DNA of 64,000 nucleotides, taken from Chiloscyllium plagiosum (taxonomy: Eukaryota). The notes under the pieces were generated by a model that did not search any database, was not told the DNA's origin, and was given only the letters and a program-made list of their open reading frames with translations. This document shows, piece after piece, positions 1 through 53,922 of this stretch (positions within the stretch are counted from its first letter, which is position 1; every line of letters starts with the position of its first letter). The translations under genes were made by a program, and so were the position numbers. Where the stretch lies: positions 3,295,851 through 3,359,850 of the forward strand of contig NC_057757.1 in NCBI RefSeq assembly GCF_004010195.1, given 5' to 3'.

Positions 1-123
1 GAAGAAGGGCTTATGCCCGAAACGTCGATTCTCCTGTTCCCTGGATGCTGCCTGACCTGCTGCGCTTTTCCAGCAACACATTTCCAGCTCTGATCTCCAG
101 CATCTGCAGACCTCACTTTCTCC
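1..123 (+). mobile_element. Penelope-like element 3' terminal repeat fragment with hammerhead motif (cut by window start)
   Basis: GAAGA-A-GGGC-TTAT-GCCC-GAAAC-GTC followed by the tail GATGCTGCCTGACCTGCTG...CCAGCATCTGCAG shared with other copies in the window. Confidence 0.8.
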
Positions 124-127
124 TCCT

Positions 128-381
128 GACTGTAGAGAGGTTAGGTGCCGGAGCATTGCTGCGAGCGTGGAGCGGACGATCTTGAAGGAGAACCGTTGCT
201 GGTGTTTTTGAATCTGTAGTCTGTACTGTTTGTCCTGTTCGGGTCCGCCTTTATTCCTGATGAAGGGCTCTTGCCCGAAACGTCGATTTCGAAGCGCCTT
301 GGATGCTGCCTGAACTGCTGTGCTCTTCCAGCACCACTAATCCAGAATCTGGTTTCCAGCATCTGCAGTCATTGTTTTTAC
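128..381. mobile_element. Penelope-like insertion: inverted ORF-like fragment (128-250, -) joined to hammerhead-bearing tail (251-381, +)
   Basis: Minus strand reads GPEQDKQYRLQIQKHQQRFSFKIVRSTLAAMLRHLTSLQS (assignment to PLE N-terminus is from memory); plus strand has CTGATGA-A-GGGC-TCTT-GCCC-GAAAC-GTC and the family tail. Confidence 0.7.
253..288 (+). ncRNA. Minimal type I hammerhead ribozyme motif (variant A)
   Basis: Intact core CTGATGA (257-263), stem II GGGC/GCCC, GAAAC-GTC (277-284); stem I is weak. Confidence 0.7.
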
Positions 382-2925
382 CCAATACAGAGTGTGCCCA
401 ACATGGACTGGAGTGGGCCCAGCACAGACCTGAGTGGGCCCAACATGGATTTGAGTGGACCCAACACGGACTGGAATGGACCCAAGACGGACTCAAGTGG
501 GTCTGGCGTGGGCGCAATACAGACTGGAGTGGGCCTAGTATAGACTGGAGTGGTCCCAGCACAGACTCAAGTGGACCCGATACAGACTGGAGTGGGCCCA
601 GCACAGTCGTGAATGGGCCCAATACATACTGGAGTGGGCCCAGCACAGACTGGAGTGGGGCCAATACAGACTGGAGTGGGCCCAATACAGACTGGAGTGG
701 GCCCAACATGGACTGGAGTGGGCCCAATACGCTGGACTGGGCCCAAAGCTTGACTGGAGTGGGCCTAGCAAATACTTGAGTCGCCCCACCACGGACTCGA
801 AACAGTCTAATACAGACTAGAGTAGGCCCATCGTGGACTTGAGTGGGCCCAGCGCGGACTCGAGTGGGCCCAGCACAGACTGGAGTGGGCCTAGTGTGGA
901 CTCGAGCGGGTCCAACACGGACTTGAATGGTCCTAATAGCACATACTGAAGTGAGCCCAATACGGACTGGAGTCGGCCTGGCACTAACTAGAGTGGGCCC
1001 AGCACAGACTAGAGTCGGCTCAATACAGACTGGAGTGGGCCCAGCACTGATTGGAGTGGGCCCAACACGGACGCGAATGGGCCCAATACAGAGTGTGCCC
1101 AACATGGACTGGTGGGCACAGCACAGACCTGAGTGGGCCCAACATGGATTTGAGTTGGCCCAACATGGACTGGAATGGACCCAATACGGATTCAAGTGGG
1201 TCTGGCACATACTGGAGTAGGCCTGGTATAGACTGGAGTGGGCCCAGCACAGACTGGAGTGGGCCCAGCACAGACTTAAGTGGACCCGATACAGATTGGA
1301 GTGGGCCTAACATGGACTCTAGTGGGCCTGGCACAGATTTGAGTGGGCCCAACGTGGACTCCAGTGGACCTGGCATAGACTCAGGTAGGCCCAGTACAGA
1401 CTGGAGTGGGCCCAGCACACACTCAAGTGGGCCCAATACAGATTGCATTGGGCCCAGCCCTGAATCCAGTGGGCCGGGCACAGACTCGAGTGGGTCCAGC
1501 ATGGACTGAAGTAGGCCCAGCACGGGCCTGAGTAGGCCCAGCATGGACTTGAGTAGGCCCAATACAGACTGGAATGGGCCCAGTATGGTCTCGAGTGGGC
1601 CCAATACAGACTGGAGTGGGTCCAGCACGGAATTGAATGGGCCAATTCAGACTGGGATGGGCGCAGCACAAACTCAAGTAGGCTCAGCACAGACTCGAGT
1701 AGGACTAGCACGGACTTGAGTTGGCCCAACACAGCTCGGGTAGGCCCAAAACAGACTGAAGTGGGCCAGGCACAGACTGAAGTAGGCCAGGCATTAGCTC
1801 GAGTGGGTCAGGCATCGACTCAATTAGGCCCAGCAGAGATTTGAGTGGGCCTAATACAGACTGAAGTGGGCCCAACACAGACTGGAGTGGGCCCAACACA
1901 GACTCGAGTGGGTCTGGCACGGACTCCTGTGGGCCCAACACGGACTGGAATGGGCCCAGCATGTACTCGAGTGGGCCCAACATGGACTGGAGTGAGCCTA
2001 ACATGGATTCGAGTGGGCCCAATACACTCTGGAGAGAGTCCAACACAGACTTCAGTGGGTCCGACATGAACTCGTGTGGGCATAACACAGATTGGAGTGG
2101 ACCCAACATGGATTCGAGTGTGCCCAGCACGGACTCGAAAGGGCCCAATACAGACTGGAGTGAGCCCAATATAGACTGGAGTTGGCCCAGCACAGACTCC
2201 AGTGTGCCCAGCATGGACTCGACTGGGCCCAATACAAACTGGAGTGGGCCCAATATAGACTGGGGTGGGCCCAATATAGACTGGAGTGGACCCAATATAG
2301 ACTGGATTGTGCCCAGCATGGACTCGAGTGGGCCCAATACAGATTGGAATGGGCCCAGTATAGTCTCGAGTGGGCCCAATACAGACAGGAGTGGGCCCAG
2401 CACAGACTGGAGTCATCCCAACATGGACTCGAAACAGCCCAATACAAACTGGAGTGGGCCCAATACAGACTGGAGTGGGCCCAACATGGACTCGAGTGGG
2501 CCCAACATGGACTCGAGTGGGCCCAGCACAGACTGGAGTGGGCCCAGCGCGGACTCGGGTGGGTTCAACACAGACTTGAGTGGGCCCAGCGCAGACGCGA
2601 GTGGGCCCAGCACAAACTGGAGTGGGCTCAACATGGACTCGAGTGGTTCAACACAGACTCAAGTGGACCCAATACGGACTGGAGTGGACCAACAGGGACT
2701 CGAGTGGGCCCAACAAGGACTTGAATGGACCCAGCATGGACTCATTTGGGCCCAGCACAGTCTGGAGTGGGACCAATACAGACTCAAGTGGGCCTAATAC
2801 AGATTGGAGCGGGCCCAATACAGACTAGAGTGGGCCAAGCACAGACTCAGGTGGGTCCGGCATGGACTGAAGTACGCCCAGCACGGGTTTGAGTAGGCCC
2901 AGTACAGACTCGAGTAGGCCCAGCA
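381..2925. repeat. 21-bp minisatellite, ~120 units, consensus CCCA(A/G)(T/C)A(C/T)(A/G)GACT(G/C)GAGTGGG
   Basis: Direct periodicity; generates the GPNTDWS / VLGPLQS / WAQHRLE pseudo-ORFs. Confidence 0.97.
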
Positions 2926-3314
2926 TACTTTGTGGCATGCCGAGTGAACACCCCACTTACTTTTCTGGGGTGAGCACAGGACGGAACATTGGAATCGGCA
3001 GCTGCTACATCGGCGGTGGTGACGTAGGCCCATCAGCGAAAGATGGCACCTGAGAATCAGCAACTTCTCTATTGGTTGGATCTGTTATAGACAGCAGAGA
3101 GGCAATGGAGGAAGGATTTGAGGCACAGACATGGCAGATGATGAGCTGGCTCAGGACTGACAGACTCCCTTTAAACTATATCTATTTATTTTTCTTATTT
3201 TTAAAACTATTCAAAATGGTGCCAGATTGTGGTGACAGTGGAGAAGCTTTTCACTGTATTTTACAGTTTTTCTCACTGTAAAATATGCCTGACAATAAAA
3301 TCATTCATTCATTC
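2926..3314 (+). mobile_element. 3' part of a non-autonomous retroposon with LINE-type tail
   Basis: GC-rich body, then AAGCTTTTCACTGTA...GACAATAAAA and (TCAT)n; resembles tails at 7640 (-) and 39105 (+). Confidence 0.6.
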
Positions 3315-3829
3315 AAGTTTAAAGTCAAGTCATTGTTCTCTGGGACAGAGGTTCCAAAGACAAACGGGCAGAAAGATGGAACTTGAACAACGTGCTGCAG
3401 TTAACTGTCAGTCATCATCTAACTGATGCACTCACCATGGCAATAGCTGTGTTAGTCATCACTCTCTTCTCGTACAGTCGTAATGGTCTTTATAGTTTGT
3501 ATTCTTGCGAGTTATCCTGATACAGATAGAAACATTCACAAGATATTTCCTTTTTTTCAGTGAAAATCAATATGCGTAATGCCATAACACTGCATGGTGG
3601 TTCCATTGCTGTTCGATGGATTATGTCCCTTGGAAATTGTCTGCCGATATTTCACACACCAAGAAGTGCCACGGGATGTCTTCAGAATGGTGAGAGGCAC
3701 TAGGGAAATGTAGCACCTTTCCCTTCACAGCCCTCCAGGCTGAAGTGCAGTCTCAGCAGCAGGAGGATGTAGACTCAGCGTGTGAGGGAAGAGTTGAGGA
3801 AGTGATACTGAGGAAAGTTAAGGAGTGTG

Positions 3830-5075
3830 GGACCATAAGATATAGGAGCAGAATTAGGCCATTCGGCCCATTGAATCTGTTCTGCCATTCAGTCGTGGTT
3901 CACATGTTTCTCAATCCCATTCTCCTTTCTTCCCCTCATAACTCTTGATTCCCCCTTACCAATCAAGAAACTATCCATCTCTGTCTTAAGGACACTCAAC
4001 AACTTGGCCTCCACAGCCCAGTGCAGCAATGAGTTCCACAGAGTCACCAGTCTCTGGCTAAAGAAAGTCCTCCTCATCTCAGTTCTCAAGTGTCATCCCT
4101 TCACCATGAGGCTGTGCCCTCAGGTCCTAGTCCCTCCTACCAATGGTAACATCTTCTCCATAGCGACTCGATCCAGGCCTCTCAGTATTGTGTAAGTTTC
4201 AGACAAATCCCCCACCCCCTTCCTTCTAAACCCCATTGGGTACAGACCCAGAGTCCTCCACCACTCCCCATATGACAAGCCCTTCATCCCCGGGATCACT
4301 CTTGTAAACCTCCTCTGGAACCCCGTCCAACGCCAGCATATCCTTCCTTAAGTACAGAGCCCCTAACTGCCTGCAATATTCCAAATGTGGTCAGACCAGA
4401 ACTATCTCTGCTCTTGTATTCAATCCCTGTTGAAATCAGAGGTGTTCTCTGAAACGCTCCGCAAGTAGCCGGCCTGTCTCCGCAAGTAGAGAGCCCCTAA
4501 CTGCCTGCAATATTCCAAATGTGGTCAGACCAGAACTATCTCTGCTCTTGTATTCAATCCCTGTTGAAATGAATGCCAATATTGCATTTGCCTTCCTAAC
4601 TGCCAACTGAATCTGCATGTTAGCATTAAGAGAATCCTGGGTGAGCTGAAAATGTGTTGTTGGAAAAGCGCAATAGGTCAGGCAGCATCCAAAGAGCAGG
4701 AGAATCGACGTTTCGGGCATGAGCCCTTCTTCAGGGCTGCGTATTTCCAGCAACATATTTTCAGCTCTGATCTCCAGCATCTGCAGTCCTCACTTTCTCC
4801 TTAAGAGAATCCTGAACTAGAATTCCCAAGTCTCTTTGTGCTTCAGATTTCCAAAGATTTTCCCCATTTAGTAAATAGTCTATTCTTCCAAACAAAGTGC
4901 ATGAAGTCACTCTTTGCCACATTGTGTACCATCTGTCACTTCTTTGCCTACTCTCCAGGCTTGTCCAAGTCCTTCTGCAGCCTCCTAGCTACCTCAACAC
5001 TATCTGTCCCTCCACCTATCTTTGTCATCTGCAAACCTAGCAACGATGCCTTCAGTTCCTTCATCCAGATCACTA
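3830..5075 (-). mobile_element. CR1 LINE 3' fragment (RT C-terminus and 3' UTR), interrupted twice
   Basis: Minus-strand peptides RTEMRRTFFSQRLVTLWNSL, AVRKANAILAFI..GIEYKSRD, TKIGG..RRLQKDLD. Confidence 0.9.
4640..4800. mobile_element. Fold-back Penelope-derived insertion with minus-strand hammerhead and 14-bp TSD
   Basis: TTAAGAGAATCCTG at 4626-4639 and 4801-4814; reverse complement of 4707-4734 = CTGAAGA-A-GGGC-TCAT-GCCC-GAAAC-GTC. Confidence 0.85.
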
Positions 5076-5082
5076 GTTGGGA

Positions 5083-5258
5083 CAATCTGAAACAAAAACA
5101 GAAATTGCTGAAAAAAGCTCGGCAGGTCTGGCAGCATCTGTGAAGAGAAATCAGAGTAAATGATTTCTCTCCACAGATGCTGCCAGAGTTGCCGAGCTTT
5201 CCCAGCAATTTCTGTTCTTGTTTCTGATTTACAGCAGCCGCAGTTCTTTGGGTTTTCA
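5083..5258. mobile_element. Palindromic Penelope-tail-derived insertion without hammerhead
   Basis: Inverted arms CAGAAATTGCTG...CTGGCAGCATCTGTG / CACAGATGCTGCCAG...CAGCAATTTCTG; same tail family as 52800-52890. Confidence 0.7.
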
Positions 5259-5777
5259 TTAATGGATAATGTTTATTTTCAAGTTGTTGGGGGGAGGGAG
5301 AGGCCTGGGGTAAGGAGTGATTGAGGGGCCAGCGATTGTAAGACAAAGCATTGGAGACTTTGGTGCACAGGTTTTACACCGCTATGCCCATCATTCTGTT
5401 GTCAAGCACAGATTTGAAGAGGGGTTTGCTTCCAAAAGGAGACACAAGGTGGCAGAATGGGTCTGGAAAACTGGTTAAGAGAAACATTTGAGCCTTCAGT
5501 CAGAGGGTATGCGTGCTAGGAGGTTTGTTCACCTCGTTTAAAACCAACAGGTCGGCCTCAGGGGGAGCACTGTGTCCAGTTTCGGGCCGTCGAACTTCAG
5601 CAAGGGGCTGAAGATGTTTGGTGGGGTGTGGAAGAGATTCACCAGGATGGTTCCAGGGATGAGGGTGAAGATAGAGCAGAGAGTGTTCTCCTCAGTGAGG
5701 AGAGAGAGGGCTGAGAGGAGGTTCGATCAAGGGAGAGAGGATGAAAAGGGAGATAGAGAGAAAGTGTTGGGGGTAAA

Positions 5778-6149
5778 NNNNNNNNNNNNNNNNNNNNNNN
5801 NNNNNNNNNNNNNNNNNNNNNNNNNNNNNNNNNNNNNNNNNNNNNNNNNNNNNNNNNNNNNNNNNNNNNNNNNNNNNNNNNNNNNNNNNNNNNNNNNNNN
5901 NNNNNNNNNNNNNNNNNNNNNNNNNNNNNNNNNNNNNNNNNNNNNNNNNNNNNNNNNNNNNNNNNNNNNNNNNNNNNNNNNNNNNNNNNNNNNNNNNNNN
6001 NNNNNNNNNNNNNNNNNNNNNNNNNNNNNNNNNNNNNNNNNNNNNNNNNNNNNNNNNNNNNNNNNNNNNNNNNNNNNNNNNNNNNNNNNNNNNNNNNNNN
6101 NNNNNNNNNNNNNNNNNNNNNNNNNNNNNNNNNNNNNNNNNNNNNNNNN
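5778..6149. other. Assembly gap (N run)
   Basis: Run of n. Confidence 1.
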
Positions 6150-6410
6150 ACCCTCACTCTCTCTCTTGCTATCTCTCGCCCTCTCTCCACTCTTTCTCCC
6201 CCTACCTTCTTTCTCGCTATCTCTCTCTGTCTCTCTCTCTCTTCCTCTCCACCCTCCCTCTCTCGTTCTCTCTGTCTGTTGTTTCATCTCTCCCTCCCTC
6301 TCTCTTTCTACCCCAGTCTCTGCCTCTCACTCTCCCTCCCTCCCTCTCATTCTCCCTCTCTCTCTCGGTCACGCTCTCTCTCCCTCACTCTCTCCCTCCC
6401 TTCTCTCTCT
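6150..6410. repeat. CT-rich low-complexity tract
   Basis: Degenerate (CT)n. Confidence 0.95.
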
Positions 6411-6494
6411 GAAGCTGTAGGGGCCATTTCTAATCCCGAGTGATTGTGGGAGCACCTCAGCCCGGAGGCTGCTGTGCCCCTGACTTTCAGACAG

Positions 6495-6645
6495 AGTGGT
6501 GTAGAGGGAGCTTTACTTTGTATCTAACCCCATGCTGCCCCTGTCCTGGGAGTGTTTGATGGGGGACAGTGTAGAGGGAGCTTTACTCTGTATCTAACCC
6601 TGTGCTGTCCCTGTCTGGGGAGTGTTTGGTGGGAATACTTTTGAT
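6495..6645 (-). repeat. Two units of the ~70-bp satellite also found at 35120-35620
   Basis: GTGTAGAGGGAGCTTTACT.TGTATCTAACCC twice; reverse complement of the 35-kb unit. Confidence 0.85.
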
Positions 6646-7639: not shown

Positions 7640-7935
7640 TTGATTTGATTTGATTTATTAATGTTACATGCATTGAGATACAGTGAAAAGTATTGTTTTG
7701 CATGCTATCCAGGTAAATCACACATTATGTAAGTACATCAGGATAATGGAACAGAATGCAGAGTATTTGCAGAGAAGAAGCAACTCTAATATATGAGAGG
7801 TCTGTTCATGAGTCTGATCACAGTGGGGAAGAAGTGATTCATGAATCTGTTAGTATGTGTTTTCAAACTTTTGTACTTTCTGCCCAATGGAAGAGGGTGG
7901 AAGAGGTGAGAGGAATCTTTGATTATGTCATGAAT
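7640..7935 (-). mobile_element. LINE 3' end (Rex-Babar/L2-like tail)
   Basis: (TTTGA)n followed by TTTATT...ACAGTGAAAAG. Confidence 0.6.
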
Positions 7936-7949
7936 AATATACAAAGGAA

Positions 7950-8470: not shown

Positions 8471-8482
8471 CACTTATGGACT

Positions 8483-8817: not shown

Positions 8818-8839
8818 CTCATTCTTGGAAGGACAGAGT

Positions 8840-13587: not shown

Positions 13588-14191
13588 GGCCCATAAAATT
13601 GTGCCAAACATGCCGCCAAATAGAACTAATTCCTTCTGCCTGCCCCTGGTCCATATCCCTCCATTTCTTGCATATTCAATGGCTTATCTAAAACCCCCTT
13701 AAACGCCACTATCGTAACTGTCTCCATCACCACCCCTGGCAAAGCTTTCCAGACTTCTACCACACTCTGTGTAAAAAACTTGCCTCTCACATCTCCTTTG
13801 AACTCCTCTCCCCCCCCCCCCCACACACACACATCTTAAAATCTTAAATGCATGCCCCCGAGTATTAGACGTTTCAACTCTGGGGAAATGATTCTGACCT
13901 ATCAATGCATCTCATCATTTTACAGACTTCTATCAAGTCCACTCAGCCCCGGCTGCTCCAGAGAAAACAACCCGAGCCTCTCTAGCCTCTCCTTTTGCTC
14001 CTGCCCTCAAATCCAGGCAGCATCCTGGTAAATCTTTTCTACACCCTCTCTAAAGCCTACACATGCTTCCAGTAATGAAACGACCAGAATTAATGCAATA
14101 CTCTAAATGCAGCCTAACCAAAGTCATACAAAGCTACAACATGATATCCTGACTCTTGCGCTCAATGTCATATGCCTTCTTTACCACCGTG

Positions 14192-14414
14192 GGAGAAAAT
14201 GAGAACTGCAGATCAGAGTTGAGAGTGTGGTGCTGGAAAAGCACAGCAGGTCAGACAGCATCCAAGGAGCAGGAGAATTGATGTTTCAGGCATAAGCCCT
14301 TCCTCAGGAATGAGGTTCATTCCTGATGAAGGGCTTCTGCCCGAACCGTCGATTCTCCTGCTCCCCGGATGCTGCCTGACCTGCTGTGCTTTTCCAGCAC
14401 CACACTCTCGACTA
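14192..14414. mobile_element. Palindromic Penelope-derived element with two head-to-head decayed hammerheads
   Basis: Arms ~14222-14313 and 14317-14412 around a GGT spacer; CTGATGA at 14323 (+), CTGAGGA on the - strand. Confidence 0.85.
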
Positions 14415-22301: not shown

Positions 22302-22985
22302 GTTTACACGTTCTCCCTGTGTCTGTGTGGGTTTCTTGGGGTGCTCCAATTTCCTCCCACAGTACTAAGCTATGCAGGTTAGGATGGATTGACCGTACTA
22401 AATTGTCCCATTGTATCCAGGGATGTGCAGGTTAGAGTGGATTGACTGTGCTAAATTATCCCGTAGTGCTCAGGGAAGTACAGTTTAGGGTGGATGTGCC
22501 ATGCTAAATTGTCCCATAGTGTCCAGGGATGTGCAGGTTAGAATGGATGGCTGTGCTAAATTGTCCCGTGGTGTCCAGGGATGTGCAGGTTAGAGTAGAT
22601 TGGCTGTGCTAAATTGTCCCATAGTGTCCAGGGATGTGCAGGTTAGAGTAGATTGGCTGTGCTAAATTGTCCCATGGTGTCCAGGGATGTGCAGGTTAGG
22701 GTGGATTGGCTGTGCTAAATTGTCGCACAGTGCCCAGGAATGTGCAGGTTAGGGTGGATTGGCCGTGCTAAATTGTCCCATAGTGCCCAGGGATGTGCAG
22801 GTTAGGGTGGATTGATCATGCTACATTATCCCATAATGTCCGGGCATGTGTTGGCCTGGGAGATTAGCCTGAGGGAATGCAGGATTACAGAGATAGGGTA
22901 GTGGGGTGGAAATGCACTTCAGAGGGTCAGTGTGGACTTGATGGGCCAAAGAGCCTGCCTCCACACTGCAGGCATCCTATGATTC
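22302..22985 (+). mobile_element. 5'-truncated HE1 SINE with ~9 tandem copies of the internal 53-bp unit
   Basis: GGGATGTGCAGGTTAG...GCTAAATTGTCCCATAGTGTCCA recurs every 52-53 bp. Confidence 0.9.
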
Positions 22986-24929: not shown

Positions 24930-25445
24930 AGATTCATAGAATCCCTACAGTGTGGAAGCAGGCCATTTGGCCCATCGAGTCCATACAGACCCACTGAAGA
25001 GCTTTCCACCCACACCCACTCCCCTATAACCCTGCATTTCCTATGGCTAACCTGCACGTTCCTGGACATTATCGGCAATTCAGTACAGCTAATCCACCCT
25101 AACCTACACATCCCTGGACACTGTGGGACAATTTAGCACGGCCAATCCACCCTAATGTACACATCCCTGAAGACTATGGGCATTTAAGCATTGCCAATTC
25201 ACCCTAACTTATACATCCCTGGATACTATGGGGCAATTTAGCATGGCCAATCCATCTCACCTGCACATCCCTGGAAACTATGGGACAATTTAGCAAGGCC
25301 AATCCATCTAACCTGCACATCTTTAGACTGTGGGAAGAAACCCATGTAGACGCAGGGAGAATGTGCAAACTCCACATCTGAAGGTTGAATCAAACCTGGT
25401 TCCCTGGCGCTGTGAGGCAGCAGTGCTAACCACTGAGCTACTGTG
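24930..25445 (-). mobile_element. HE1 SINE with internal tandem units
   Basis: About five CCAATCCACCCTAACCT.CACATCCCTGG units, V-domain, tRNA-like head. Confidence 0.9.
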
Positions 25446-29325: not shown

Positions 29326-29945
29326 ATTTTGACAGATGGAACAATGGGGAGAGTCCCACTGCAATGGGTGTTCCAACAAACCAAGGAAGATGGAGTTACA
29401 TTGATGTAGTGCCTCTAACATCCCAAAGGTGCTTCCCAGGAGTGTCTTTAGGCCAAATAATGTGGCACTGAACAATATAAGGAGATCATTTGGACAAACA
29501 AAGGGTTACTTACTCAAAAAGGGGAGTTTGAACAGTTTGTTTTAATGGACGAGTGGGATGGAGAGTTTGATGGAGAGAATTCCAGGGTTTGGGGCCCAGG
29601 CAGCTGAAGGCATGGCCACATGGAGAAAGGTAAGTATTGAATTCACTGGAGGCCAGGATTGGAGGAGCTTAGAAATCTCATTGGGACACAGGGCTGGAGT
29701 ATAAGGTCAGTGGGAGTCCTGAAAGGACTTGTAATGAAAGAGGCCACTTTTGGAATATTGTGTGCAATTCTGCTCTCCCTCTCATAGGAAGGATGTTATG
29801 AAACTTGAAAAAGTTAAGAAAAGATTTACAAGGATGTTTCCAGGGTGAGAGGGTTTGAGCTGAACAGACTGAGGGTGCTTTCCCTGGAACGTCAGAGACT
29901 GAGGGGGTGACCTCGTAGACTTTTACCAAATCGTGAGGCACATGG

Positions 29946-30170
29946 TTAAAAAAATCACACAATACCAGATTATAGTCCAACAGGTTTAATTGGAAGCACA
30001 CTAGCTTTCAGAGCACTGCTCCTTCATCAGATGATCAGGTTGACTATCACCTGATGAAGGAGCGACACTCCGAACGCTAGTGCTTCCAATTAAACCTGTT
30101 GGACTATAACCTGGTGTTGTGTGATTTTTAACTTTGTACACCCCAGTCCAACACCGGCATCTCCAAATCA
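29946..30170. mobile_element. Palindromic Penelope-derived element with two head-to-head hammerheads (variant B) and TSD
   Basis: Arms ~29946-30035 / 30046-30131; TGAGGCACATGG at 29934-29945 and 30171-30182. Confidence 0.88.
29999..30033 (-). ncRNA. Minimal type I hammerhead ribozyme motif (variant B)
   Basis: rc reads CAT-CTGATGA-A-GGAGC-AGT-GCTCT-GAAAG-CTA-GTG: full core, stems I and II pair with G-U wobbles, AGCT palindromic stem III. Confidence 0.7.
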
Positions 30171-35989: not shown

Positions 35990-36285
35990 TAACTAGGTAA
36001 TTTGAGATGGCATTTTTGCAGGAGGTAGGGTGGAAAGAGGTGTAATCCAGGTAGCTGTGGGAGTCGGGTTTGTAAAAAATGTCGGTGTCAAGTCGGTCAT
36101 CATTAATGGAGATGGAGAGGTCCAGGAAGGGGAGGGAGGTTTTTTACCCCCACCCTCCTCTCATTTATCTCTCCACCCTTCAGGCATTCTGCCTGCATTC
36201 CTGATGAAGGGCTTTTGCCCGAAACGTCAATTTTCCTGCTCCTCGGATGCTGCCTGATCTGCTGTGCTTTTCCAGCTCCTCTAAT
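35990..36285. mobile_element. Penelope-like insertion: inverted RT fragment (-) plus hammerhead tail (+)
   Basis: Minus strand SLPFLDLSISINDDRLDTDIFYKPDSHSYLDYTSFHP; CTGATGA-A-GGGC-TTTT-GCCC-GAAAC-GTC at 36201-36228; ACAGAAATCT at 35980 and 36286. Confidence 0.88.
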
Positions 36286-37044
36286 ACAGAAATCTCAAGT
36301 CCATCCCTAGTCTGACTGACACGTAAATCCAGACTCGCAGCAATGTGTCTGACTCTTAGCTGCCTCAAAATGCCCTAGCAGAGCCATTCAATTCAGGGGG
36401 CAATTAGGGATGAACAATAAATGTGGGCCCAGCCTCTGTCCAATGAATAAATAAGCATTGGGACCAGCTTCCTCGTTGTTGTTCTGAAGTTATCTGGAGG
36501 GGGAGGGCTGCTTTGCCATATTCCTCTCCTTCCCCACACTCAGTTCCTTCCAGTTGAGATTACGTAATCAAGTTCTCCGATTCATACCACGCTATTTTTT
36601 GCTATGCACCTTCAGAGTTTGCCAACAGATTTGCTCATCTATCTCTTTCTCACCGTTCGGAGCTCTCTAAAAGTGTCGTTGCCTTGCAACTACTCTCCTT
36701 CTGTTGCCTACCTCAAGCCAAGCAGAATGTGTCCACAGCCACTTAGTGGATCTTTTGCTGTTTTTGACTGGATTTTTGTCTTAGACCGTTTCTGGAAAGG
36801 TTCACACTTTCACCTCTGAGTCAGAAAAGACTCTAATCCAGGCCTTGGAATCCACAGCAGGTCTGGTGTTAATAGCAAGTCCAATTGGGTTGCCAAGAAT
36901 TAAGTATCTTGAGCACTTAAAAAGAGAGTACAAATGTGTGGGCAGAATGGATGACATCTTTAAGAGTCTGCTCCTAGGCCTGACTAAGGTGGTTTTAAAT
37001 AGGTCCAAGCATGGAGGGTGGGGTTCAAAGAGTTAATTAGAACC

Positions 37045-37388: not shown

Positions 37389-37511
37389 CTTTGATTGATT
37401 TAATCAGCCAGTCATTACAGGTCTTCAAGGGGCTATTCAATACAGGGGGTGGGACAGAATCGGAGATAGTGATGTCCGAAGGCTGGAGGAGCTTACAGAG
37501 ATAGGGAGGGG

Positions 37512-37590
37512 AGAGTGGTGCTGGGAAAGCACAGCCGGTCAGGCAGCATCTGAGGAGCAGGAGAGCCGACGTTTCGAGCATAAGCCCTTC
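37512..37590 (-). mobile_element. Truncated PLE tail (hammerhead 3' half only)
   Basis: GACGTTTCGAGCATAAGCCCTTC. Confidence 0.75.
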
Positions 37591-41274: not shown

Positions 41275-41438
41275 AATAAATAAAAAGTGGGCCATACCAC
41301 CAGTGCTTCATCCAGAGGTTCACTGATGATGTTACCTAGTATGGTGATGAAACGTCTGAAACCGAACTTTCCAGCTCAGAGAGAAAACCTCCATCCAGAA
41401 CCTCAACCTGAGCTACAAATCTTCACAAAGCTCACTAA
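41275..41438 (+). mobile_element. Penelope-like 3' terminal repeat (variant C)
   Basis: Homologous to 47990-48125, which follows a GIY-YIG fragment. Confidence 0.8.
41319..41360 (+). ncRNA. Minimal type I hammerhead ribozyme motif (variant C), best preserved copy
   Basis: TTCA-CTGATGA-T-GTTACC-TAGTAT-GGTGAT-GAAAC-GTC-TGAA: perfect 4-bp stem I, 6-bp stem II, intact core. Confidence 0.8.
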
Positions 41439-45473: not shown

Positions 45474-45494
45474 TTATTTATAGCTAGTTTTTAA

Positions 45495-45675: not shown

Positions 45676-45683
45676 AAATGGAG

Positions 45684-46050
45684 TTAATAATGAACTTGAA
45701 AGACCCTATACAGACAACAAGCAAAACTAGTGTAATTTACAAAATGCCGTGCAAGGACTGTAACAAACACTACATTGGACAAACAGGCAGAAAATAGCCA
45801 GCAGGATACATGAACATCAACTAGCCACAAAACAACATCACCCTCTCTCACTAGTATCCTTATGTATAGATGAGGAAGGACACCACTTCGACTGGGACAA
45901 CACATTCATCCTAGGACAAGCCAAACGGAGACACACACAAGAATTCTGAGAAACATGGCATTCCAACCAGAACTCTATCAACAAACACATTGACTTGGAT
46001 TCCATTTACCACCCCATGAGAAAAAGGACAGGAAATGACATCAGCACAGG
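45684..46050 (+). mobile_element. Penelope-like element GIY-YIG endonuclease remnant
   Basis: Plus frame MNLKDPIQTTSKTSVIYKMPCKDCNKHYIGQTGRK, then frameshifted RIHEHQLAT...GHHFDWDN. Confidence 0.9.
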
Positions 46051-46167
46051 CGTGGGCCCTTCATCAGGAATGAGGAAGGGCTTGTTCCTGGTGGGGGTCT
46101 TGAGCCTGGGGTGCCGATTTTCCTGTTCCTCAGACGCTGCTTGTCCAGCTGTGCTTTTCCAGCACCA

Positions 46168-47986
46168 CAAGAGGATTGATGAGGGCAGAGCAGTAGATGT
46201 GATCTATATGGACTTCAGCAAGGCGTTCGACAAGGTTCCCCATGGGAGACTGATTAGCAAGGTTAGATCTCACGGAATACAGGGAGAACTAGCCATTTGG
46301 ATACAGAACTGGCTCAAAGGGAGAAGGCAGAGCGTGCTGGTGGAGGGTTGTTTTTCAGACTGGAGGCCTGTGACCAGTGGAGTGCCACAAGGATCGGTGC
46401 TGGGTCCTCTGCTTTTTGTCATTTACATAAATGATTTGGATGCGAGCATAAGAGGTACAGTTAGTAAGTTTGCAGATGACACCAAAATTGGAGGTGTATG
46501 GACAGTGAAGAGGGTTACCTCAGATTACAAGATCTGGACCAGATGGGCCAATAGGCTGAGAAGTGGCAGATGGAGTTTAATTCAGATAAATATGAAGTGC
46601 TGCATTTTGGGAAAGCAAATCTTAGCAGGACTTATACACTTAATGGTAAGGCGTTCGACAAGGGAGTGTTGCTGAACAAAGAGACCTTGGAGTGCAGGTT
46701 CATAGCTCCTTGAAAGTGGAGTCGCAGGTAGATAGGATAGTGAAGAAGACGTTTGGTATGCTTTCCTTTCTTGGTCAGAGTATTGAGTACAGGAGTTGGG
46801 AGGTCATGTTGTGGCTGTACAGGACATTGGCTAGGCCACTGTTGGAATATTGCATGCAATTTTGGTCTCCTTCCTATCGGAAAGATGTTACAGACAATAG
46901 ACAATAGACAATAGGTGCAGGAGTAGGCCATTCTGCCCTTCGAGCCTGTATCACCCCCCCCAAAACGGCCGAGCAAGCCTCTCAGTTCACAAGGCTGATC
47001 ATCCTTAATCAGTATCCTGTTCCTGCCTTATCTCCATAACCCTTGATTCCACTATCCTTGAAAGCTCTATCCAACTCTTTCTTAAATGAATCCAGAAACT
47101 GGGCCTCACTGCCCTCTGGGGCAGAGCATTCCACACAGCCACCACTCTCTGGGTGAAGAAGTTTCTCCTCATCTCTGTCCTAAATGGTCTACCCCGTATT
47201 TTTAAGCTGTGTCCTCTGGTTCGGCACTCACCCATCAGCGGAAACATGTTTCCTGCCTCCAGAGTGTCCAATCCTTTAATAATCTTATATATCTCAATCA
47301 GATCCCCTCTCAGTCTTCTAAACTCAAGGGTATACAAGCCCAGTTGCTCCAGTCTTTCAGTGTAAGGTAGTCCCGCCATTCCAGGAATTGACCTCGTGAA
47401 CCTACGCTGCACTCCCTCAATAGCCAGAATGTCTTTCCTCAAATTTGGAGAGCAGAACTGCACACGATACTCCAGGTGTGGTCTCACCAGGGCCCTGTAC
47501 AGGTGTTGTGAAACTTGAAAGTGTTCAGAAAAGATTTACAAGGATGTTGCCAGGGTTGGAGGATTTGAGCTATAAGGCTGGGGCTGTTATCCCTGGAGTG
47601 TCGGAGGCTGAGACGTGACCTTATCGAGGTTTACAAAATCATGAGGGGCATGGATAGGGTAAGTTTTTTCCCTGGGGTCAGGGAGTCTAGAACTAGAGGG
47701 CATGGGTTTAGGGTGAGAGGGGAAAGATATAAAAGAGACCTACGGGGCAACTTTGTCACACAGAGGGTGGTATGTGTATGGGATGAGCTGCCAGAGGAAG
47801 TGGTGGAGGTTGGTATAATTGCAACATTTAAGAGGCATTTGGATGGGTATATGAATAGGAAGGGTTTGGAGGGCTATGGGCTGGGTGCTGGCAGGTGGGA
47901 CTAGATTGGGTTGGGATATCTGGTCGGCATGGACGGGTTGGACCGAAAGGTCGGTTTCCATGCTGTACATCTCTATGACTCTATGA
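46168..47986 (+). mobile_element. CR1 RT plus 3' UTR, split by a second CR1
   Basis: [17 protein letters not shown]...[13 protein letters not shown]...SKFADDTK; resumes at ~47503; ends CTATGACTCTATGA. Confidence 0.95.
46890..47502 (-). mobile_element. CR1 3' fragment nested in CR1
   Basis: RPHLEYRVQFCSP...FFTQRVVAVWNALP; (GACAATA)n tail. Confidence 0.93.
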
Positions 47987-48125
47987 CAGCGCTAATCCAA
48001 AGAAACCCATACACGTAAATAGAAAGCAGGAATCATCAGCAGTGCTTCGTCCTGAGATGTTACCTTGTATAGTGGCAAAACGTCTGAAAATGAACCTTCC
48101 AGCTCAGTGAGCAAACCTAAATCTA
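47987..48125 (+). mobile_element. Continuation of the Penelope element (3' repeat, decayed hammerhead)
   Basis: CAGTGCTTC...ATGTTACCTTGTATAGTGGCAAAACGTCTGAAA, homologous to 41300-41400. Confidence 0.8.
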
Positions 48126-48239
48126 GTAGTTACTAATTTAGAAAGGCTTCTACAATAACAGTTGCATGGCAGCTAACTTTATAAACCCAATCTTTAATTA
48201 ATGCAATAATAGAACAGGATCTTGATCAGCTGGGCCAAT

Positions 48240-49313
48240 GGCCACCACCCTCTGCATGAAAAGGTTGCCCCTCATGTCCCTCTTGAATCTTTCCCTTCTC
48301 ACCTTAAACCTCTGCCTCTAGTTTTAAACCCCATCTATCCTGGGGAAAAACCTCGCCTATTCACCATGTACATGCCCCTTGGTATTTTCCAAACCTACAC
48401 TCCAGATTTTAAAAAAAGTCCCAACTTATCCAGCTTTGCCTTATAACTCAAACCCTCCAGTCCTGAAAACATCCTTGTAAATCTTTCCTGCACCCTTTCC
48501 AATTTCACAATATCCTTCCTAAAGAAGGGAGACTGGAACTGAACGCAGGGCCAAGGGGGGGCAGATGGAGTTTAATTTAGATAAATGCAAGGTGTTGCAT
48601 TTTGATAAGTCAAACCAGAGCAGGATCATACACTTAATGGTAGGACCTGGGGCAGTGTTGTCAAACAGAGAGACCTGGAAGTCTAGGTATGTAGTTCCTA
48701 GGTACATAGGTAGACAGGGTAGTGAAGAAGGCATTTGGCACGCTTCTCTTCATTGTTCAGAGTATTGGGTATATGAGTTGGGTTATCATGTACAACACAT
48801 TGGTAAGGCTACTTTTGGAATACAGCATTCAGTTCCAATCTCCCTTCTTTAGGAAGTATATTATGAAATTGGAAAGGGTGCAGGAAAGGTTGTATAGGAT
48901 GTTGGTGAGGTCTCTTCAGGAATACTGTGTCCTGTTCTTGTCACCCTGCAATAGGAAGGATATTAACTTGGAAAGGATTCAGAAGAGATTTACCAGGATG
49001 CTGCCAGAAATGGAACATTTCAGTTATAAGGAGAGGCTGGATGGGCTGGGACTTTTTTCACAGGAGCTCAGGGGTTCAAGGTTTATAAAATTATGAGGGT
49101 TACGATTAGGTGAATAGGATGGGGGATTTCAAGACTAGGGAGCATAGTTTTAGGGTGAGAGGAGAAAGATTTTAAAATGACATGGGGGCAATTTGTTTTA
49201 CACAGAGAGTGGTTCATGTGTGGAATGAACTTCTGCAGGAAGTGATGGATGCGGGTATAATTATAATATTTAAAAGACATTTGGATAATTACATAAATAG
49301 GAAAGGTTTAGAG
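48240..49313. mobile_element. CR1 fragments (48240-48545 -; 48550-49313 +, resuming at 52451-52562)
   Basis: MEFNLDKCKVLHF, FTQRVVHVWNEL. Confidence 0.88.
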
Positions 49314-52300
49314 AAATGGTGCAGGAGGGAGAGTTTTGGATTCTTGGATAATTGGGGCTCTTTCTGGGGTAGGTGGGACCTCTACAAGCAGGATGGTCTT
49401 CATCTGAACAGAGGGGGACCAATATCCTGGGGGGGGGGGGAATTCGCTAAGGCTATTGGGGTGGGTTTAAACTAATCCAGCAGAGGGATGGGAACCAAAA
49501 TTGTAGTTCGAGTATAGAAAAGGTTGAGAGTAGGGAGGTCTGAAATCAAGTTTCGGGGATGCAAAATGGCACTGGCAAGCAAGAAGTTAGTTTGAAGTGT
49601 GTCTACTTCAACACCAGGAGCATCTGGAATAAGGTGGGTGAACTTGCAGCATGGGTTGGTACCTGGGACTTTGATGTTGTGGCCATTTCAGAGACATGGA
49701 TAGAGCAGGGACAGGAATGGTTGTTGCAGGTTCCAGGATTTAGATGTTTCAGTAAGAACAGAGAAGATGGTAACAGAGGGGGAGGTGTGGCATTGTTGGT
49801 TAAGGACAATATTACAGTTGCAGAAAGGATGTTTGGGGACTCGTCAACTGAGGTAGTATGGGCTGAGGTTAGAAACAGGAAATGAGAGGTCACCCTGTTG
49901 GGAGTTTTCTATAGGCCTCCGAATAGTTCCAGAGATGTAGAGGAAAGGATAGTAAAGATAATTCTCGATAGGAGTGAGAGAGACAGAGTAGTTGTCATGG
50001 GGGACTTCAACTTTCCAAATATTGACTGGGAACACTATAGTACGAGTACTATAGATGGGTCAGTTTTTGTCCGGTGTGTGCAGGAGGGCTGGCCAGGTAT
50101 GAGACAGGCCAACAAGGGGCAAAGCCACATTATATTTGGTACTGGGTAATGAGCCCGGCCAGATGTTAGACTTGGAAGTAGGTGAGCACTTCGGTGATAG
50201 CGATCACAATTCTGTTATGTTTACTGTGGTGATAGAAAGGGATAGGTGTCTACCACTGGGCAAGAGTTACAGCTGGGGGAAAGGCAATTACGATGCGATT
50301 AGGCAAGATTTAGGAAGCATAGGATGGGGAAGGAAACTGCAGGGGATGGGCACAGTAGAAATGTGGAGCTTATTCAAGGAAAAGCTCCTGTATGTCCTAG
50401 ATAAGTATGTAGTGGTCAGGCAGGGGGGAAGCTGTAGAGCGCGGGAGCTGTGGTTTATGAAGGAAGTGGAATCTCTGGCCAAGAGGAAGAAGAAGGCTTA
50501 TGTTAGGATGAGATGTGAAAGCTCAGGTAGGGCGCTTGAGGGTTAGAAGGTAGCCAGGAAAGACCTAAAGAGAGAGCTCAGAAGAGCCAGGAGGAGACAT
50601 GAGAAGTTGTTGGTGGATAGGATCAGGGTAAACCCTAAGGCTTTCTATAAGTATTTAAGGAATAAAAGAATGACGAGAGTAAGATTAGGGCCAATCGAGG
50701 ATAGTAGTGGGAAGTTATGTGTGGAGTCAGAGGAGATAGGGGAAGCACTAAATGAATATTTTTCGACAGTATTCACTCTAGAAAACGACAATGTTGTAAG
50801 GAGAATACTGAGATACAGGCTACTAGATTAGGTGGAATTGAAGTTCACAAGGAAGAGGTATTAGAAATCCTGCAGAGTGTGGAAATAGATAAGTCCCCTG
50901 GGCCCGATGGGATTTATCTTAGTATCCTCTGGGAAGCCAGAGAGGAGATTGCCGAGCCTTTGACATTGATCTTTAAATCGTCATTGTCTATGGGAATAGT
51001 GCCAGAAGACTGGAGGATAGCAAATGTGGTTCCCCTGTTCAAGAAGGGGAGTAGAGACAACCCTGGTAATTATAGACCAGTGAGCCTTACTTCAGTTGTT
51101 GGTAAAGTGTTGGAAAACGTTATAAGAGATAGGGTTTATAATCATCTAGAAAAGAATAATTTGATTAGGGATAGTCAGCACGGTTTTGTGAAGGGTAGGT
51201 CATGCCTCACAAACCTTATTGAGTTCTTTGAGAAGGTGACCAAACAGATAGATGAGAGTAAACTGGTTGATGTGGTGTATATGGATTTCAGCAAGGCGCT
51301 CGATAAGGTTCCCCACAGTAGGCTATTGTACAAAATGCAGAGGAATGGGATTGTGGGAGATGTAGCAGTTTGGATCAGTAATTGGCTTGCTGAAGGAAGA
51401 CAGAGGGTGGTGGCTGATGGGAAATGTTCATTCTGGAGTCCAGTTACCAGTGGTGTACCGCAAGGGTCAGTGTTGGATCCACTTTGTTCATCATTTTTAT
51501 AAATGACCTGGATGAGGGCGTAGACGAGTGAGTTAGTAAATTTGCAGATGACACTAAGGTCAGTGGAGTTGTGGATAGTGACGAAGGATGTTGTAGGTTA
51601 CAGAGAGACATAGATAAGCTGCAGAGCTGGGCTGAGAGGTGGCAAATGGAGTTTAATGCAGACAAGTGTGAGGTGATTCACTTTGGTCGGAGTAACCGGA
51701 ATGCAAAGTACTGGGCTAATGATAAGATTCTTGGTAGTGTAGATGTGCAGAGAGATCTCGGTGTCCATGTACGCAGATCCTTGAAAGATACCACTGAGGT
51801 TGAAAACAGAAGTTGCTGAAAACTTCTGTTAAGAAGGCATACAGTGTTTTATCTTTTATTAATTGAGGGATCGTGTTCCGGAACCATGAGGTTATGCTAC
51901 AGCTGTACAAAGCTCTGGTGCGGCTGCACTTGGAGTATTGTGTACAGTTCTGGTCACCGCATTATAAGAAGGATGTGGAAGCTTTGGAAAGGGTGCAGAG
52001 GAGATTTAATAGGATGTGGCCTGGTATAGAGGGAAGGTCTTACGAGGAAAGGCTGATGGACTTGAGGCTGTTTTCATTGGAGAGAAGAAGATTGAGAGGT
52101 GACTTAATAGAGACATATAAGATAATCAGAGGGTTAGATAGGGTGGACAGGGAGAGCCTTTTTCCAAGTATGGTGACGGTGAGCATGAGGGGGCATAGCT
52201 TTAAATTGAGGGGTGATACATATAGGACAGATCTCAGAGGTAGTTCCTTTACTCAGAGAGAGTAGAATGGGTATGGAATGCTTTGCCTGCAACGGTAGTA

Positions 52301-52450
52301 GATTCGCCAACTTTAAGTACATTTAAGTCGTCATTGAACAAACATATGGACATACATGTAGGTTAGATGGGCTTCAGATTGGTATGACAGGTCGGCGCAA
52401 CACCGAGGGCCGAAGGGGGCCTGTTCTGAGCTGTAATGTTCTATGTTCTA
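49314..52450 (+). mobile_element. 5'-truncated CR1 LINE: ORF1 esterase C-terminus, disrupted ORF2 (APE + RT), 3' UTR
   Basis: WDLYKQDGLHLN (SGNH-type), [41 protein letters not shown] (51538-51558); stops at 49883 and 50544; TTCTATG tail. Confidence 0.97.
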
Positions 52451-52698
52451 TAGATATGGGGCAGGAGCAGGCAGGTGGGATTAGTTTAGTTTGCAATTAT
52501 GGTCAGCATGGACTGGTTGGACCGAAGGGTCTGTTTCTGTGCTGTATAACTCTATGACTCTATTGAATCAATGATTTAACTTTATTGCATGCAGCAGCCA
52601 AAATAAGATCCCTCAAGTGAGCAAGTTCAAGCTCACAACTCAGCTTGACTATTATCCAATTAATGGTGGAAGCTCGCCAGGATTTCAACCAACAGTGT

Positions 52699-52903
52699 TA
52701 CCATTTCAGATTCAGTGACCCTTCCTCAGAACCGATGGGTCTACTACCACAAACACCACCACAATCTGTTCTGAGGAAGGGTCACTGAACCCAAAACATT
52801 AACTCTGATTTCTCTCCACAGATGCTGCCAGACCTGCTGAGCTTTTCCAGCAACTTCTGTTTTCATTTTGGATTTACAGCATCCGCAATTCATTCAATGT
52901 TTT
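52699..52903. mobile_element. Fold-back Penelope-derived insertion (variant D) with 16-bp TSD
   Basis: TTTCAACCAACAGTGT at 52683-52698 and 52904-52919; TTCAGTGACCCTTCCTCAGAAC / GTTCTGAGGAAGGGTCACTGAA inverted. Confidence 0.88.
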
Positions 52904-53624
52904 TTTCAACCAACAGTGTCCATCTCTGGAAGTGTCCAGGGTTTGTTCCTTGTGCAGTGTTGTTCCCTAAAGTTCTGCTGCTGAATTGTTCTGCTGTTGG
53001 ATGGCTGTTTTCTCCCTCATTAAGTCTGTGTGGGACGTTCTTGATGATTCTTTCATCCCTAACATTGATGACACTTCCGGAGACCTCAAGTCTGTAGCTT
53101 GCCTATTTTATCAGAAGAAGCTCCCTTGTTCTTTGTAACATTCGGGGTTAGCTGTCTGTTTAAGATACAGTTTTTCCTGCAATTAATGCCCTTAGCTTCA
53201 GGACACTGTTTTGGTGGACAGTCTAAATGGCCCATTTGTCATGAGGTTCCTGCCTATCATGCAGTTGTTAACCCCTGTCTCCCAGGAACCAGCCTGTTTA
53301 TGGTGTTTCTTCCCAGAGATGGTTAATTCTCATGCTGCTGTTCATTTCTTTACAACAGCTGCTCATTGTCCCTTTCATCTCTGGAAACATTCGATCCCCA
53401 AAAGAACTGTTGCTGATTTTTTCAACTTTCTGAAGTTTACATTGGCACACTGTACTCTCCTGGATCAGAGCCAGAAACACTGTCACTGAACTGCAAGATA
53501 CATTGCAGGGAAAGCTTGACAAACAAATGAAGGAATAAAGGAACAGAAGGATATAAATAGAGTGAGATAGAGGGAGGTGGATGGTGCTGCTTGCACACTG
53601 TAAATATTGGCATCCATCAATTGC

Positions 53625-53730
53625 ACGGAACAAAGTAGACAAACAGGAGGCTGGGAGAACACAACAAGCCAGGCAGTATCAGGAGGTGGAGAAATCAACA
53701 TTTCAAGTATTAACCCTTCGTCAGCACTGA
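53625..53730 (-). mobile_element. Decayed PLE tail with hammerhead remnant
   Basis: rc CTGACGA-A-GGGT-TAAT-ACTT-GAAAT-GTT. Confidence 0.65.
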
Positions 53731-53811
53731 TCAACCTGCCTTACTGTTGCAAATACTCTCTCACAGACTTTCCTGAGCACAGTGGCTCTGTGGGTAGCAG
53801 GGAGTCATAGG

Positions 53812-53853
53812 CGAAAACGACAAATGCTAGAGATCACAGCGGGTCGGACAGCA

Positions 53854-53884
<31 letters not shown>

Positions 53885-53922
53885 CAAGCTAATGGTTCAA
53901 GTCTAGTGACTCTTCATCAGAG
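53812..53922 (-). mobile_element. Decayed PLE tail with hammerhead remnant and (GA)n
   Basis: rc CTGATGA-A-GAGTC-ACTA-GACTT-GAACC-ATT. Confidence 0.65.

What the first reader, a model, noticed from the sequence alone, without database searches (positions are those of the whole stretch)
1..53922. At least ten hammerhead-ribozyme-type motifs in about six sequence variants across the window
Seen: the cores CTGA(T/A/G/C)GA and GAAA recur with different but base-pairing stem II sequences. These are GGGC/GCCC (1, 257, 4707-, 14323, 36201), GGAGC/GCTCY (29999-, 30051), GTTACC/GGTGAT (41323), GGGT/ACCC (52771), GAGTC/GACTT (~53900-) and GGGT/ACTT (~53710-). All have one extra nucleotide after CUGANGA, and the better copies have a loopless ACGT or AGCT stem III. 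Known: Penelope-like elements carry minimal type I hammerheads thought to cleave as dimers. Inference: several shark PLE lineages kept the fold by covariation, making this a very ribozyme-dense genome.
Basis: partly seen in the sequence, partly recalled or inferred. Interest (0 to 1): 0.7.

Follow-up and report, generated by a model that had tools for sequence, protein, structure and literature searches.

The report
Penelope hammerheads, cut sites U6-marked
These motifs are real minimal hammerhead (self-cutting RNA) sequences at the ends of Penelope-type jumping genes, a known pairing, here mostly decayed and in over 160,000 copies; elsewhere in the genome U6 RNA copies are joined exactly at the predicted cut, which likely records that the ribozymes cut in living cells.

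Summary
Observation confirmed. The window holds 13 minimal type I hammerhead (HHR) motifs in six variants; 8 have exact cores against 0.1 per shuffle. They lie in pseudo-LTRs of Penelope-like elements (PLEs): five variants are tied to Neptune-type and one to Poseidon-type RT/GIY-YIG sequence. Stems I and II covary between families. The genome has 167,410 strict cores against 296 in the control, and the window is average for it. This is the min-HHR of Cervera and De la Pena 2014, so a known kind; only the copy number stands out. Most window copies are decayed, and several sit head-to-head, where they cannot form dimers in cis; only the copy at 257 is intact. Short copies begin mostly just before the ribozyme, not at its cut. 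The best extra result lies outside the window: at seven loci a U6 copy is joined exactly at the predicted cut, indirect evidence of cleavage in vivo. The scan found all of this before on other DNA (702 notes, at least 36 genomes); the U6 lead came from those notes and was retested here.

The parts
1..124 (+). GGGC-family (Neptune-type) pLTR arm with long tail; HHR lacks its first CT at an assembly gap
257..284 (+). GGGC-family min-HHR, the only fully intact copy in the window (core, G10.1-C11.1, ACGT stem III, C17 at 284; stem I 2 bp, then U.U and A-U); arm runs to about 380
4640..4802 (-). Fold-back GGGC insertion: HHR 4734-4707 with short tail and the 5' arm of stem I replaced, joined to an inverted long-tail piece; 12-bp target duplication at 4628 and 4803
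5084..5249 (.). Fold-back GGGT-CAC-family tails without ribozyme
14190..14412 (.). Head-to-head GGGC pair: HHR 14307-14280 (-) and 14323-14350 (+), both decayed; folds as one hairpin, -171 kcal/mol, z = -23
29946..30170 (.). Head-to-head GGAGC/AGCT pair: HHR 30030-30002 (-, core intact, G-U at 10.1-11.1) and 30051-30079 (+, GAAC); 12-bp target duplication at 29934 and 30171
36006..36137 (-). 44-codon PLE RT (thumb-region) fragment joined head-to-head to the pLTR at 36201; 11 of the 25 fetched relatives carry a sense GGGC HHR 0.9-1.3 kb downstream
36201..36228 (+). GGGC min-HHR, core intact, first stem I pair broken; pLTR about 36150-36290
37511..37590 (-). GGGC arm truncated inside the first core box
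41323..41356 (+). GTTACC (Poseidon-type) min-HHR: core intact, 6-bp stem II with G-U at 10.1-11.1, 4-bp stem I; A9-U-G10.1 reads ATG; arm about 41285-41437
45690..46050 (+). Decayed GIY-YIG endonuclease end of a Poseidon-type PLE (frameshift and stops); its genomic relatives run on into the GTTACC HHR
46052..46170 (.). Degenerate GGGC fold-back remnant interrupting the Poseidon-type copy
48052..48126 (+). Degenerate GTTACC-family HHR and tail
52699..52903 (.). Head-to-head GGGT-CAC pair: HHR 52729-52700 (-) and 52771-52800 (+), both with broken cores; 16-bp target duplication at 52683 and 52904
53697..53724 (-). Decayed GGGT short-loop family min-HHR
53891..53920 (-). Decayed GAGTC family min-HHR
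61055..61223 (.). Fold-back GGGC tails (short and long) without ribozyme; 13-bp target duplication at 61042 and 61224

Best explanation
The motifs are minimal type I hammerheads in the terminal repeats (pseudo-LTRs) of at least six Penelope-like retrotransposon families, and the window's copies are truncated, mostly decayed insertions whose master elements likely keep a ribozyme that cuts part of their RNA in vivo. Shown: family links to RT and GIY-YIG sequence, covarying stems, two alternative 3' ends, target duplications and head-to-head pairs. Inferred: the endonuclease makes a staggered cut of 12-17 bp, and both DNA ends prime reverse transcription at two internal start sites about 60-110 nt downstream of the ribozyme, one long-tail and one short-tail arm. 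Most cDNAs stop early or run off a likely capped 5' end about 4 nt before the first core box, so even tiny insertions carry the motif, which explains the density. Inferred: some RNAs are cut after N17, probably with help from the PLE protein or a second copy, leaving a 5'-OH that an RtcB-type ligase occasionally joined to U6 before copying. Selection acts on master elements only; individual genomic copies decay neutrally.
For: Motif: 8 exact hits against 0.1 per shuffle; 167,410 against 296 genome-wide. PLE link: same-strand endonuclease within 700 nt upstream in 19 of 128 GGGC, 4 of 12 GGGT short-loop and 2 of 19 GGGT-CAC/GAGTCA copies (Neptune type, C-x3-C-x2-C linker), and in 11 of 16 GTTACC and 17 of 20 GTCACC copies (Poseidon type); downstream controls were 4, 1, 0, 0 and 1. 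For GGAGC, L237 has two direct HHRs 2,517 bp apart around an RT ORF whose homologues carry RVT_1, often with GIY-YIG; endonuclease-like text lies upstream in 2 further copies. Covariation: 92% of cells paired, 6 of 10 pairs with double changes, score 0.627 against 0.190 in shuffles and at most 0.116 when slid. Within GGGC, lineage-level variation hits 4 of 5 free positions and 0 of 23 constrained ones, read by eye, P = 2e-4. Tails: 27 of 30 divergent pairs have one long and one short arm, P = 4e-6, as with the two RT starts in PMC11167929. 5' ends: 32 of 117 at -6..0 against about 1 per position at +1..+26. G before ATTC 10,206 times against A 4,524; only 4 of 40 inspected Gs come from the inverted arm. 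U6 is joined to the G after C17 at 6 GGGC loci with differing tails, and at the cut in one arm of a GTCACC insertion. All 5 of 5 hits of a pattern spanning positions 0 to +30 fall at +28, P about 1e-5 if junctions followed ordinary break points. In 3 loci both arms carry U6 next to the cut.
Against: No cleavage was assayed. Ordinary copies rarely end at the cut (2 of 117 at +28), so most templates look uncut. In the largest family stem I is only 2 bp plus U.U and A-U, except in one subfamily. Published work found low in vitro activity for min-HHRs (PMC4209133), no need for cleavage in in vitro insertion, and no RNA ends at the cut (PMC11167929). Two other U6 chimeras join inside the endonuclease region, not at a cut. 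The extra G was outside the target duplication in only 4 of 9 resolvable cases; 4 were ambiguous and 1 was offset. No endonuclease hit lay upstream of 0 of 7 GAGTCATC or 0 of 53 GGAGC copies with the six queries. The covariation alignment has only 10 related sequences, the number of covarying pairs alone was not significant (61 of 500 shuffles), and GGAGC was left out because MAFFT misaligned it.
Confidence: 0.88

Rival explanations
1. The PLE identity is right, but the fold is kept as a protein-binding or initiation element (overlapping the transcript start and, in Poseidon types, the start codon) and does not cut in vivo.
For: 5' ends pile up before the motif, not at the cut. Stem I is weak in the largest family. 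A9-U-G10.1 forms the ATG in both Poseidon-type families. Cleavage was dispensable for insertion in vitro (PMC11167929).
Against: U6 is joined exactly at the scissile bond at 7 loci in 2 families. Catalytic residues are invariant across Neptune and Poseidon types while all helices covary. The anole PLE HHR cut when protein was added (PMC11167929).
Confidence: 0.07
2. The short copies are an independent non-autonomous element (non-LTR retrozyme or SINE-like) that spreads through small circular RNAs.
For: Most copies are 100-200 bp with no ORF; only 18 of 117 extend beyond -10. Retrozymes derive from PLE pLTRs (bioRxiv 10.64898/2026.07.22.740005).
Against: No tandem arrays of the motif in the window. 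5' ends are variable, and longer copies run continuously into the endonuclease. 3' ends are the two PLE tail ends. Units do not begin and end at the cut site.
Confidence: 0.04
3. Individual copies are host-domesticated ribozymes under selection.
For: Family sequence is present in RNA reads of a related organism on both strands.
Against: Copies show CpG decay across the core and stem III. 11 of 12 complete window copies are damaged or carry a wobble at 10.1-11.1. Both-strand reads fit passive read-through.
Confidence: 0.01

Closest known systems
Minimal type I hammerheads (min-HHR) in pLTRs of metazoan PLEs (Cervera and De la Pena 2014, PMC4209133; parts 1-2 of 4 read)
   Same: Extra nucleotide between 9 and 10.1, invariant G10.1-C11.1, palindromic 15.2-16.2 with no loop III, several covarying families per genome, mostly solo truncated copies, opposite-strand pairs 100-700 bp apart, Neptune and Poseidon hosts in fish.
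   Different: Count: at least 167,410 strict cores (47 per Mb) against about 9,000 in Xenopus tropicalis and 4,000 in coelacanth (different descriptors). No shark is named in the parts read.
Poseidon PLE of the green anole, PAc (Frangieh et al. 2024, PMC11167929; parts 1-2 of 4 read)
   Same: ATG at the start of stem II (both Poseidon-type families here), two internal RT starts that define a 30-40-nt tail, both target strands cut and extended.
   Different: They found no RNA ends at the cut; here U6 junctions mark it. The long-plus-short pairing of arms is counted here (27 of 30).
Complex tandem/inverted PLE insertions with tail (Craig et al. 2021, PMC8557442; passages read)
   Same: 5' truncation, an inverted copy at the 5' end, a tail at one end only, Neptune Zn-linker.
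   Different: Here most insertions are reduced to 100-250-bp fold-backs.
U6/LINE-1 chimeras made by RtcB ligation (Moldovan et al. 2019, PMC6789731; abstract and opening read)
   Same: The U6 3' end is joined to a retroelement RNA and retrotransposed; ligation needs a 5'-OH.
   Different: The partner is a PLE, and the junction is fixed at a ribozyme cut instead of being variable.
Non-LTR retrozymes (Cervera and de la Pena 2020, PMC7229834, passages read; Li et al. 2026, bioRxiv 10.64898/2026.07.22.740005, parts 1-3 of 5 read)
   Same: Type I HHRs in very high copy number (126,247 in the 28-Gb axolotl genome); PLE-related; present in the one chondrichthyan sampled in 2026.
   Different: Retrozymes are head-to-tail tandem units; these are dispersed or head-to-head pLTR stubs, about ten times denser per Mb than in axolotl.

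Membership tests
min-HHR of metazoan PLEs | Core CUGANGA ... GAAA ... UH | tested here: met
   8 exact sites in the window; 167,410 strict cores genome-wide
min-HHR of metazoan PLEs | Extra nucleotide before stem II and G10.1-C11.1 pair | tested here: met
   All 12 complete window sites have the extra base; G-C in 10 of 10 representatives; C-to-T decay in 6 of 12 window copies
min-HHR of metazoan PLEs | Palindromic 15.2-16.2 without loop III | tested here: met
   ACGT in five variants, AGCT in GGAGC
min-HHR of metazoan PLEs | Covarying stems I and II between families | tested here: met
   6 of 10 pairs with double changes, score 0.627 against 0.190; GGAGC not in the alignment
min-HHR of metazoan PLEs | Self-cleavage as a dimer or with protein help | not testable with these tools
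   Only indirect: U6 junctions at the cut
EN+ Penelope-like elements | RT followed by GIY-YIG endonuclease, flanked by pLTRs holding the HHR | tested here: met
   Pfam hits on the broken copies were below cut-off (GIY-YIG E 0.003, RVT_1 E 0.004); no intact element was recovered
EN+ Penelope-like elements | Inverted 5' copy and 30-40-nt tail at one end | tested here: met
   27 of 30 pairs long plus short
Neptune versus Penelope/Poseidon clade | CX2-5CxxC linker before GIY-YIG in Neptune, absent in Poseidon | tested here: met
   Present in GGGC-linked and absent in GTTACC/GTCACC-linked endonucleases; a cysteine-rich linker also in L237
Neptune versus Penelope/Poseidon clade | Placement in an RT phylogeny with named references | not tested
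   No reference PLE proteins were on hand; the clade names rest on the linker and on PMC8557442
Non-LTR retrozymes | Head-to-tail tandem units each with an HHR | tested here: not met
   No such array in the window; 9 same-strand neighbours, none forming an array, in 629 kb; genome-wide arrays not excluded
Rfam hammerhead families | Match to a curated hammerhead model | tested here: not met
   No hammerhead family among 16 matches at E <= 5; expected for loopless variants (inference)

The most novel reading that the evidence does not exclude
This genome keeps a fossil record that animal Penelope minimal hammerheads cut their RNA in the germ line. U6 is ligated to the 5'-OH left by the cut in both Neptune- and Poseidon-type families, and the chimeric RNA is then copied on both strands of the target, while most ordinary copies come from uncut, capped RNA that begins at the ribozyme.
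Probability: 0.75. Interest if true: 0.65.

Novelty: new member of a known kind. Interest (0 to 1): 0.42.

Why it matters
The motif class and its PLE host have been published since 2014, so the finding as stated is not new in kind. Two things are useful. First, the count (at least 167,000 cores, 47 per Mb) exceeds the published counts read here and gives a large natural set for covariation and insertion-junction studies. Second, whether animal min-HHRs cut in vivo is open: the 2014 paper had no in vivo evidence, and the 2024 study found no RNA ends at the cut. U6 junctions at the exact scissile bond argue that they do cut, and they point to a direct test.

Tried and rejected
Rfam scan: no hammerhead match, only chance hairpin families. 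Pfam on three short window fragments: no hits; on longer loci only sub-threshold GIY-YIG and RVT_1 hits. The longest open frames found by the RT-fragment search were mostly spans over assembly gaps, so no intact element was obtained. A first endonuclease-linkage count was discarded because some queries carried non-PLE flank, and was redone with six clean queries. MAFFT misaligned the GGAGC rows, which were dropped: 1 of 11 rows, 2 of 12. Expression: no RNA holder listed. Laying one raw RNA run of a related organism showed both-strand coverage and no pile of ends at the cut, which such a library cannot be expected to show; a second run laid nothing. Break peaks at +5 and +37..+45 were treated as microhomology or indel artefacts of ungapped mapping. 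A U6 pattern with too short a gap found nothing; it only tests junctions about 3-11 nt past the cut. Target duplications were not found around the nine U6 chimeras by my script, which looked only directly beside U6, while most have an inverted arm there. The idea that window 1 and 257 form a simple tandem was rejected: they are different subfamilies separated by unrelated sequence. Literature searches: 'hammerhead ribozyme + Penelope + shark' gave 1 irrelevant hit; 'hammerhead ribozyme + Chondrichthyes' gave 5, one relevant; 'U6 snRNA + chimeric + Penelope + hammerhead' gave 0. The library lacks most subscription papers; Lunse et al. (dimers) was seen only as a citation. The supplements of the 2026 preprint, not seen, may hold chondrichthyan counts.
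Full report
Observation. A scan for CTGANGA, an optional extra base, a stem II of at least 4 bp and GAAA finds 8 exact hits in the window, against 2 in 20 shuffles in total. Four more listed sites carry one core mismatch, and the copy at position 1 is cut by an assembly gap. Only 257 is fully intact. 41323 and 30030 keep the core with a wobble at 10.1-11.1, 4734 and 36201 lack stem I, and seven are broken. Rfam has no matching hammerhead model.

Density. A strict pattern (CTGANGANG...CGAAASST, no pairing required) has 167,410 matches in the 3.56-Gb genome against 296 for the reversed control. Family patterns give 93,870 GGGC, 18,482 GGAGC, 15,902 GTYRCC and 1,318 GRGT, each with control 0. The window is average: 3 strict cores seen against 3.0 expected, and 8 exact hits against 5.2 from 59 random 10-kb stretches. 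Published counts I read are about 9,000 (Xenopus tropicalis), about 4,000 (coelacanth) and 126,247 (axolotl, 28 Gb), made with other descriptors.

What carries the motifs. The window has a decayed GIY-YIG end at 45690-46050; most of its 24 fetched relatives run on into the GTTACC motif or its decayed form. An RT fragment at 36006-36137 (-) abuts the GGGC motif at 36201, and 11 of the 25 fetched loci have a sense GGGC motif 0.9-1.3 kb downstream. With six clean endonuclease queries, a same-strand hit within 700 nt upstream was found for 19 of 128 GGGC, 4 of 12 GGGT short-loop and 2 of 19 GGGT-CAC/GAGTCA copies, all Neptune-type. It was found for 11 of 16 GTTACC and 17 of 20 GTCACC copies, all Poseidon-type, and for none of 53 GGAGC or 7 GAGTCATC copies (the loci were partly selected for these features). 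GGAGC is tied to a PLE by L237, where two direct motifs 2,517 bp apart enclose a broken RT ORF whose 102 longer homologues mostly carry RVT_1, often with GIY-YIG, and by endonuclease-like text upstream of two copies. In both Poseidon-type families A9-U-G10.1 is an ATG opening a frame, as in the anole element. No intact element was recovered.

Covariation. In ten natural representatives (GGAGC dropped as misaligned) 92% of cells pair and 6 of 10 pairs change on both sides. The score is 0.627 against 0.190 in shuffles and at most 0.116 when slid; the pair count alone is not significant, 61 of 500. GGAGC adds the ACGT-to-AGCT change in stem III and CAC/GTG in stem I. Among 86 of 114 tail-anchored GGGC copies, lineage-level variation falls on N7 and loop II (4 of 5 free positions, 0 of 23 constrained, read by eye), while single copies show CpG decay across the core. 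Selection therefore acts on master elements, not on copies (inference).

Insertion anatomy. In 629 kb there are 122 tail arms. Thirty form divergent pairs within 1.5 kb, 27 of them one long-tail plus one short-tail arm; most have 12-17-bp target duplications, and only 9 same-strand neighbours were seen. Four window insertions have clear duplications. A head-to-head pair folds into one hairpin and cannot form the dimer. This fits the two RT starts and two-strand extension shown for the anole PLE and the inverted copies and tails described for PLEs. 5' ends pile up at -6..0 (32 of 117), only 2 fall at the cut, and 18 extend beyond -10. G precedes ATTC 10,206 times against 4,524 for A. Of 40 inspected Gs, 4 come from the inverted arm, and in 9 cases with a target duplication the G was extra in 4 and ambiguous in 4. 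A capped start near -4 is likely but not shown.

Evidence for cutting. Earlier notes of this scan pointed to U6 fusions, which I retested. Of 48 U6 matches scored, all fetched, four loci join U6 to the G after C17 of the GGGC family, one joins at the cut of a GTCACC copy (exact in its inverted arm), and two join inside a Neptune endonuclease. A pattern spanning positions 0 to +30 returned 5 hits, all at +28, two of them new. That makes six GGGC loci with differing tails plus one Poseidon-type locus. If junctions followed ordinary break points, the chance of 5 of 5 is about 1e-5. In three loci both arms carry U6 next to the cut, which favours a chimeric RNA made before copying. RtcB joins the cyclic-phosphate end of U6 to 5'-OH RNA (abstract), and a hammerhead cut leaves a 5'-OH (established knowledge). 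This is indirect but specific evidence of cleavage in the germ line. Against it stand low in vitro activity, dispensability for insertion in vitro and the scarcity of ordinary copies ending at the cut.

Verdict. They are new members of a known kind, mostly dead copies, at a density typical of this genome. The scan had already recorded this many times (702 notes in at least 36 genomes; 2,213 notes in this genome fit a related look-up). The part worth pursuing is the U6 record of cleavage, which lies outside the window and returned no paper in my one search for it. The host label 'shark' was not tested.

Noticed in passing
L180, L158, L048, L070, L197, L028 (110 nt after N17): A second predicted helix follows the ribozyme: GATGCTG...CAGCATC enclosing an inner hairpin in Neptune-type tails, and CAGCTC...GAGCT in Poseidon-type tails. 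Its 3' strand lies in the optional tail between the two 3' ends. A candidate RT-binding or initiation element.
   Followed up: partly
window 52699-52729: The minus arm of this pair ends 1-3 nt after the predicted cut, directly at the target duplication, unlike the usual short or long tail ends.
   Followed up: no
window 123-250 (-): The spacer between the copies at 1 and 257 has a stop-free 42-codon frame on the minus strand. It had no match in the fetched loci; it resembles the N-terminus of a PLE ORF (recalled, untested).
   Followed up: partly
window 390-2922: 21-bp minisatellite of about 116 copies starting just after the tail of the 257 copy.
   Followed up: no
window 22373-22850, 25047-25321, 57713-58025: 53-bp tandem repeats linked to a SINE-like family, in both orientations.
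   Followed up: no
window 50756-51502 (-), 55368-56441 (-) and others: Many RT fragments of CR1/L2-like LINE type (label recalled); most PLE stubs are inserted inside them.
   Followed up: no
L297, L298, L302, L307, L310-L317 (not all), L320, L323, L330: Over a dozen U6 copies are fused to the 5' end of a tRNA-like SINE, several to LINE fragments, and one (L293) to a tRNA-like sequence.
   Followed up: no
L237:4870-4991 (-): In the GGAGC family a pyrimidine tract and CAG precede the likely ATG about 120 nt after the first core base, suggesting an intron in the pLTR.
   Followed up: no
window 61332-61955: 312-bp direct duplication, 97% identical.
   Followed up: no
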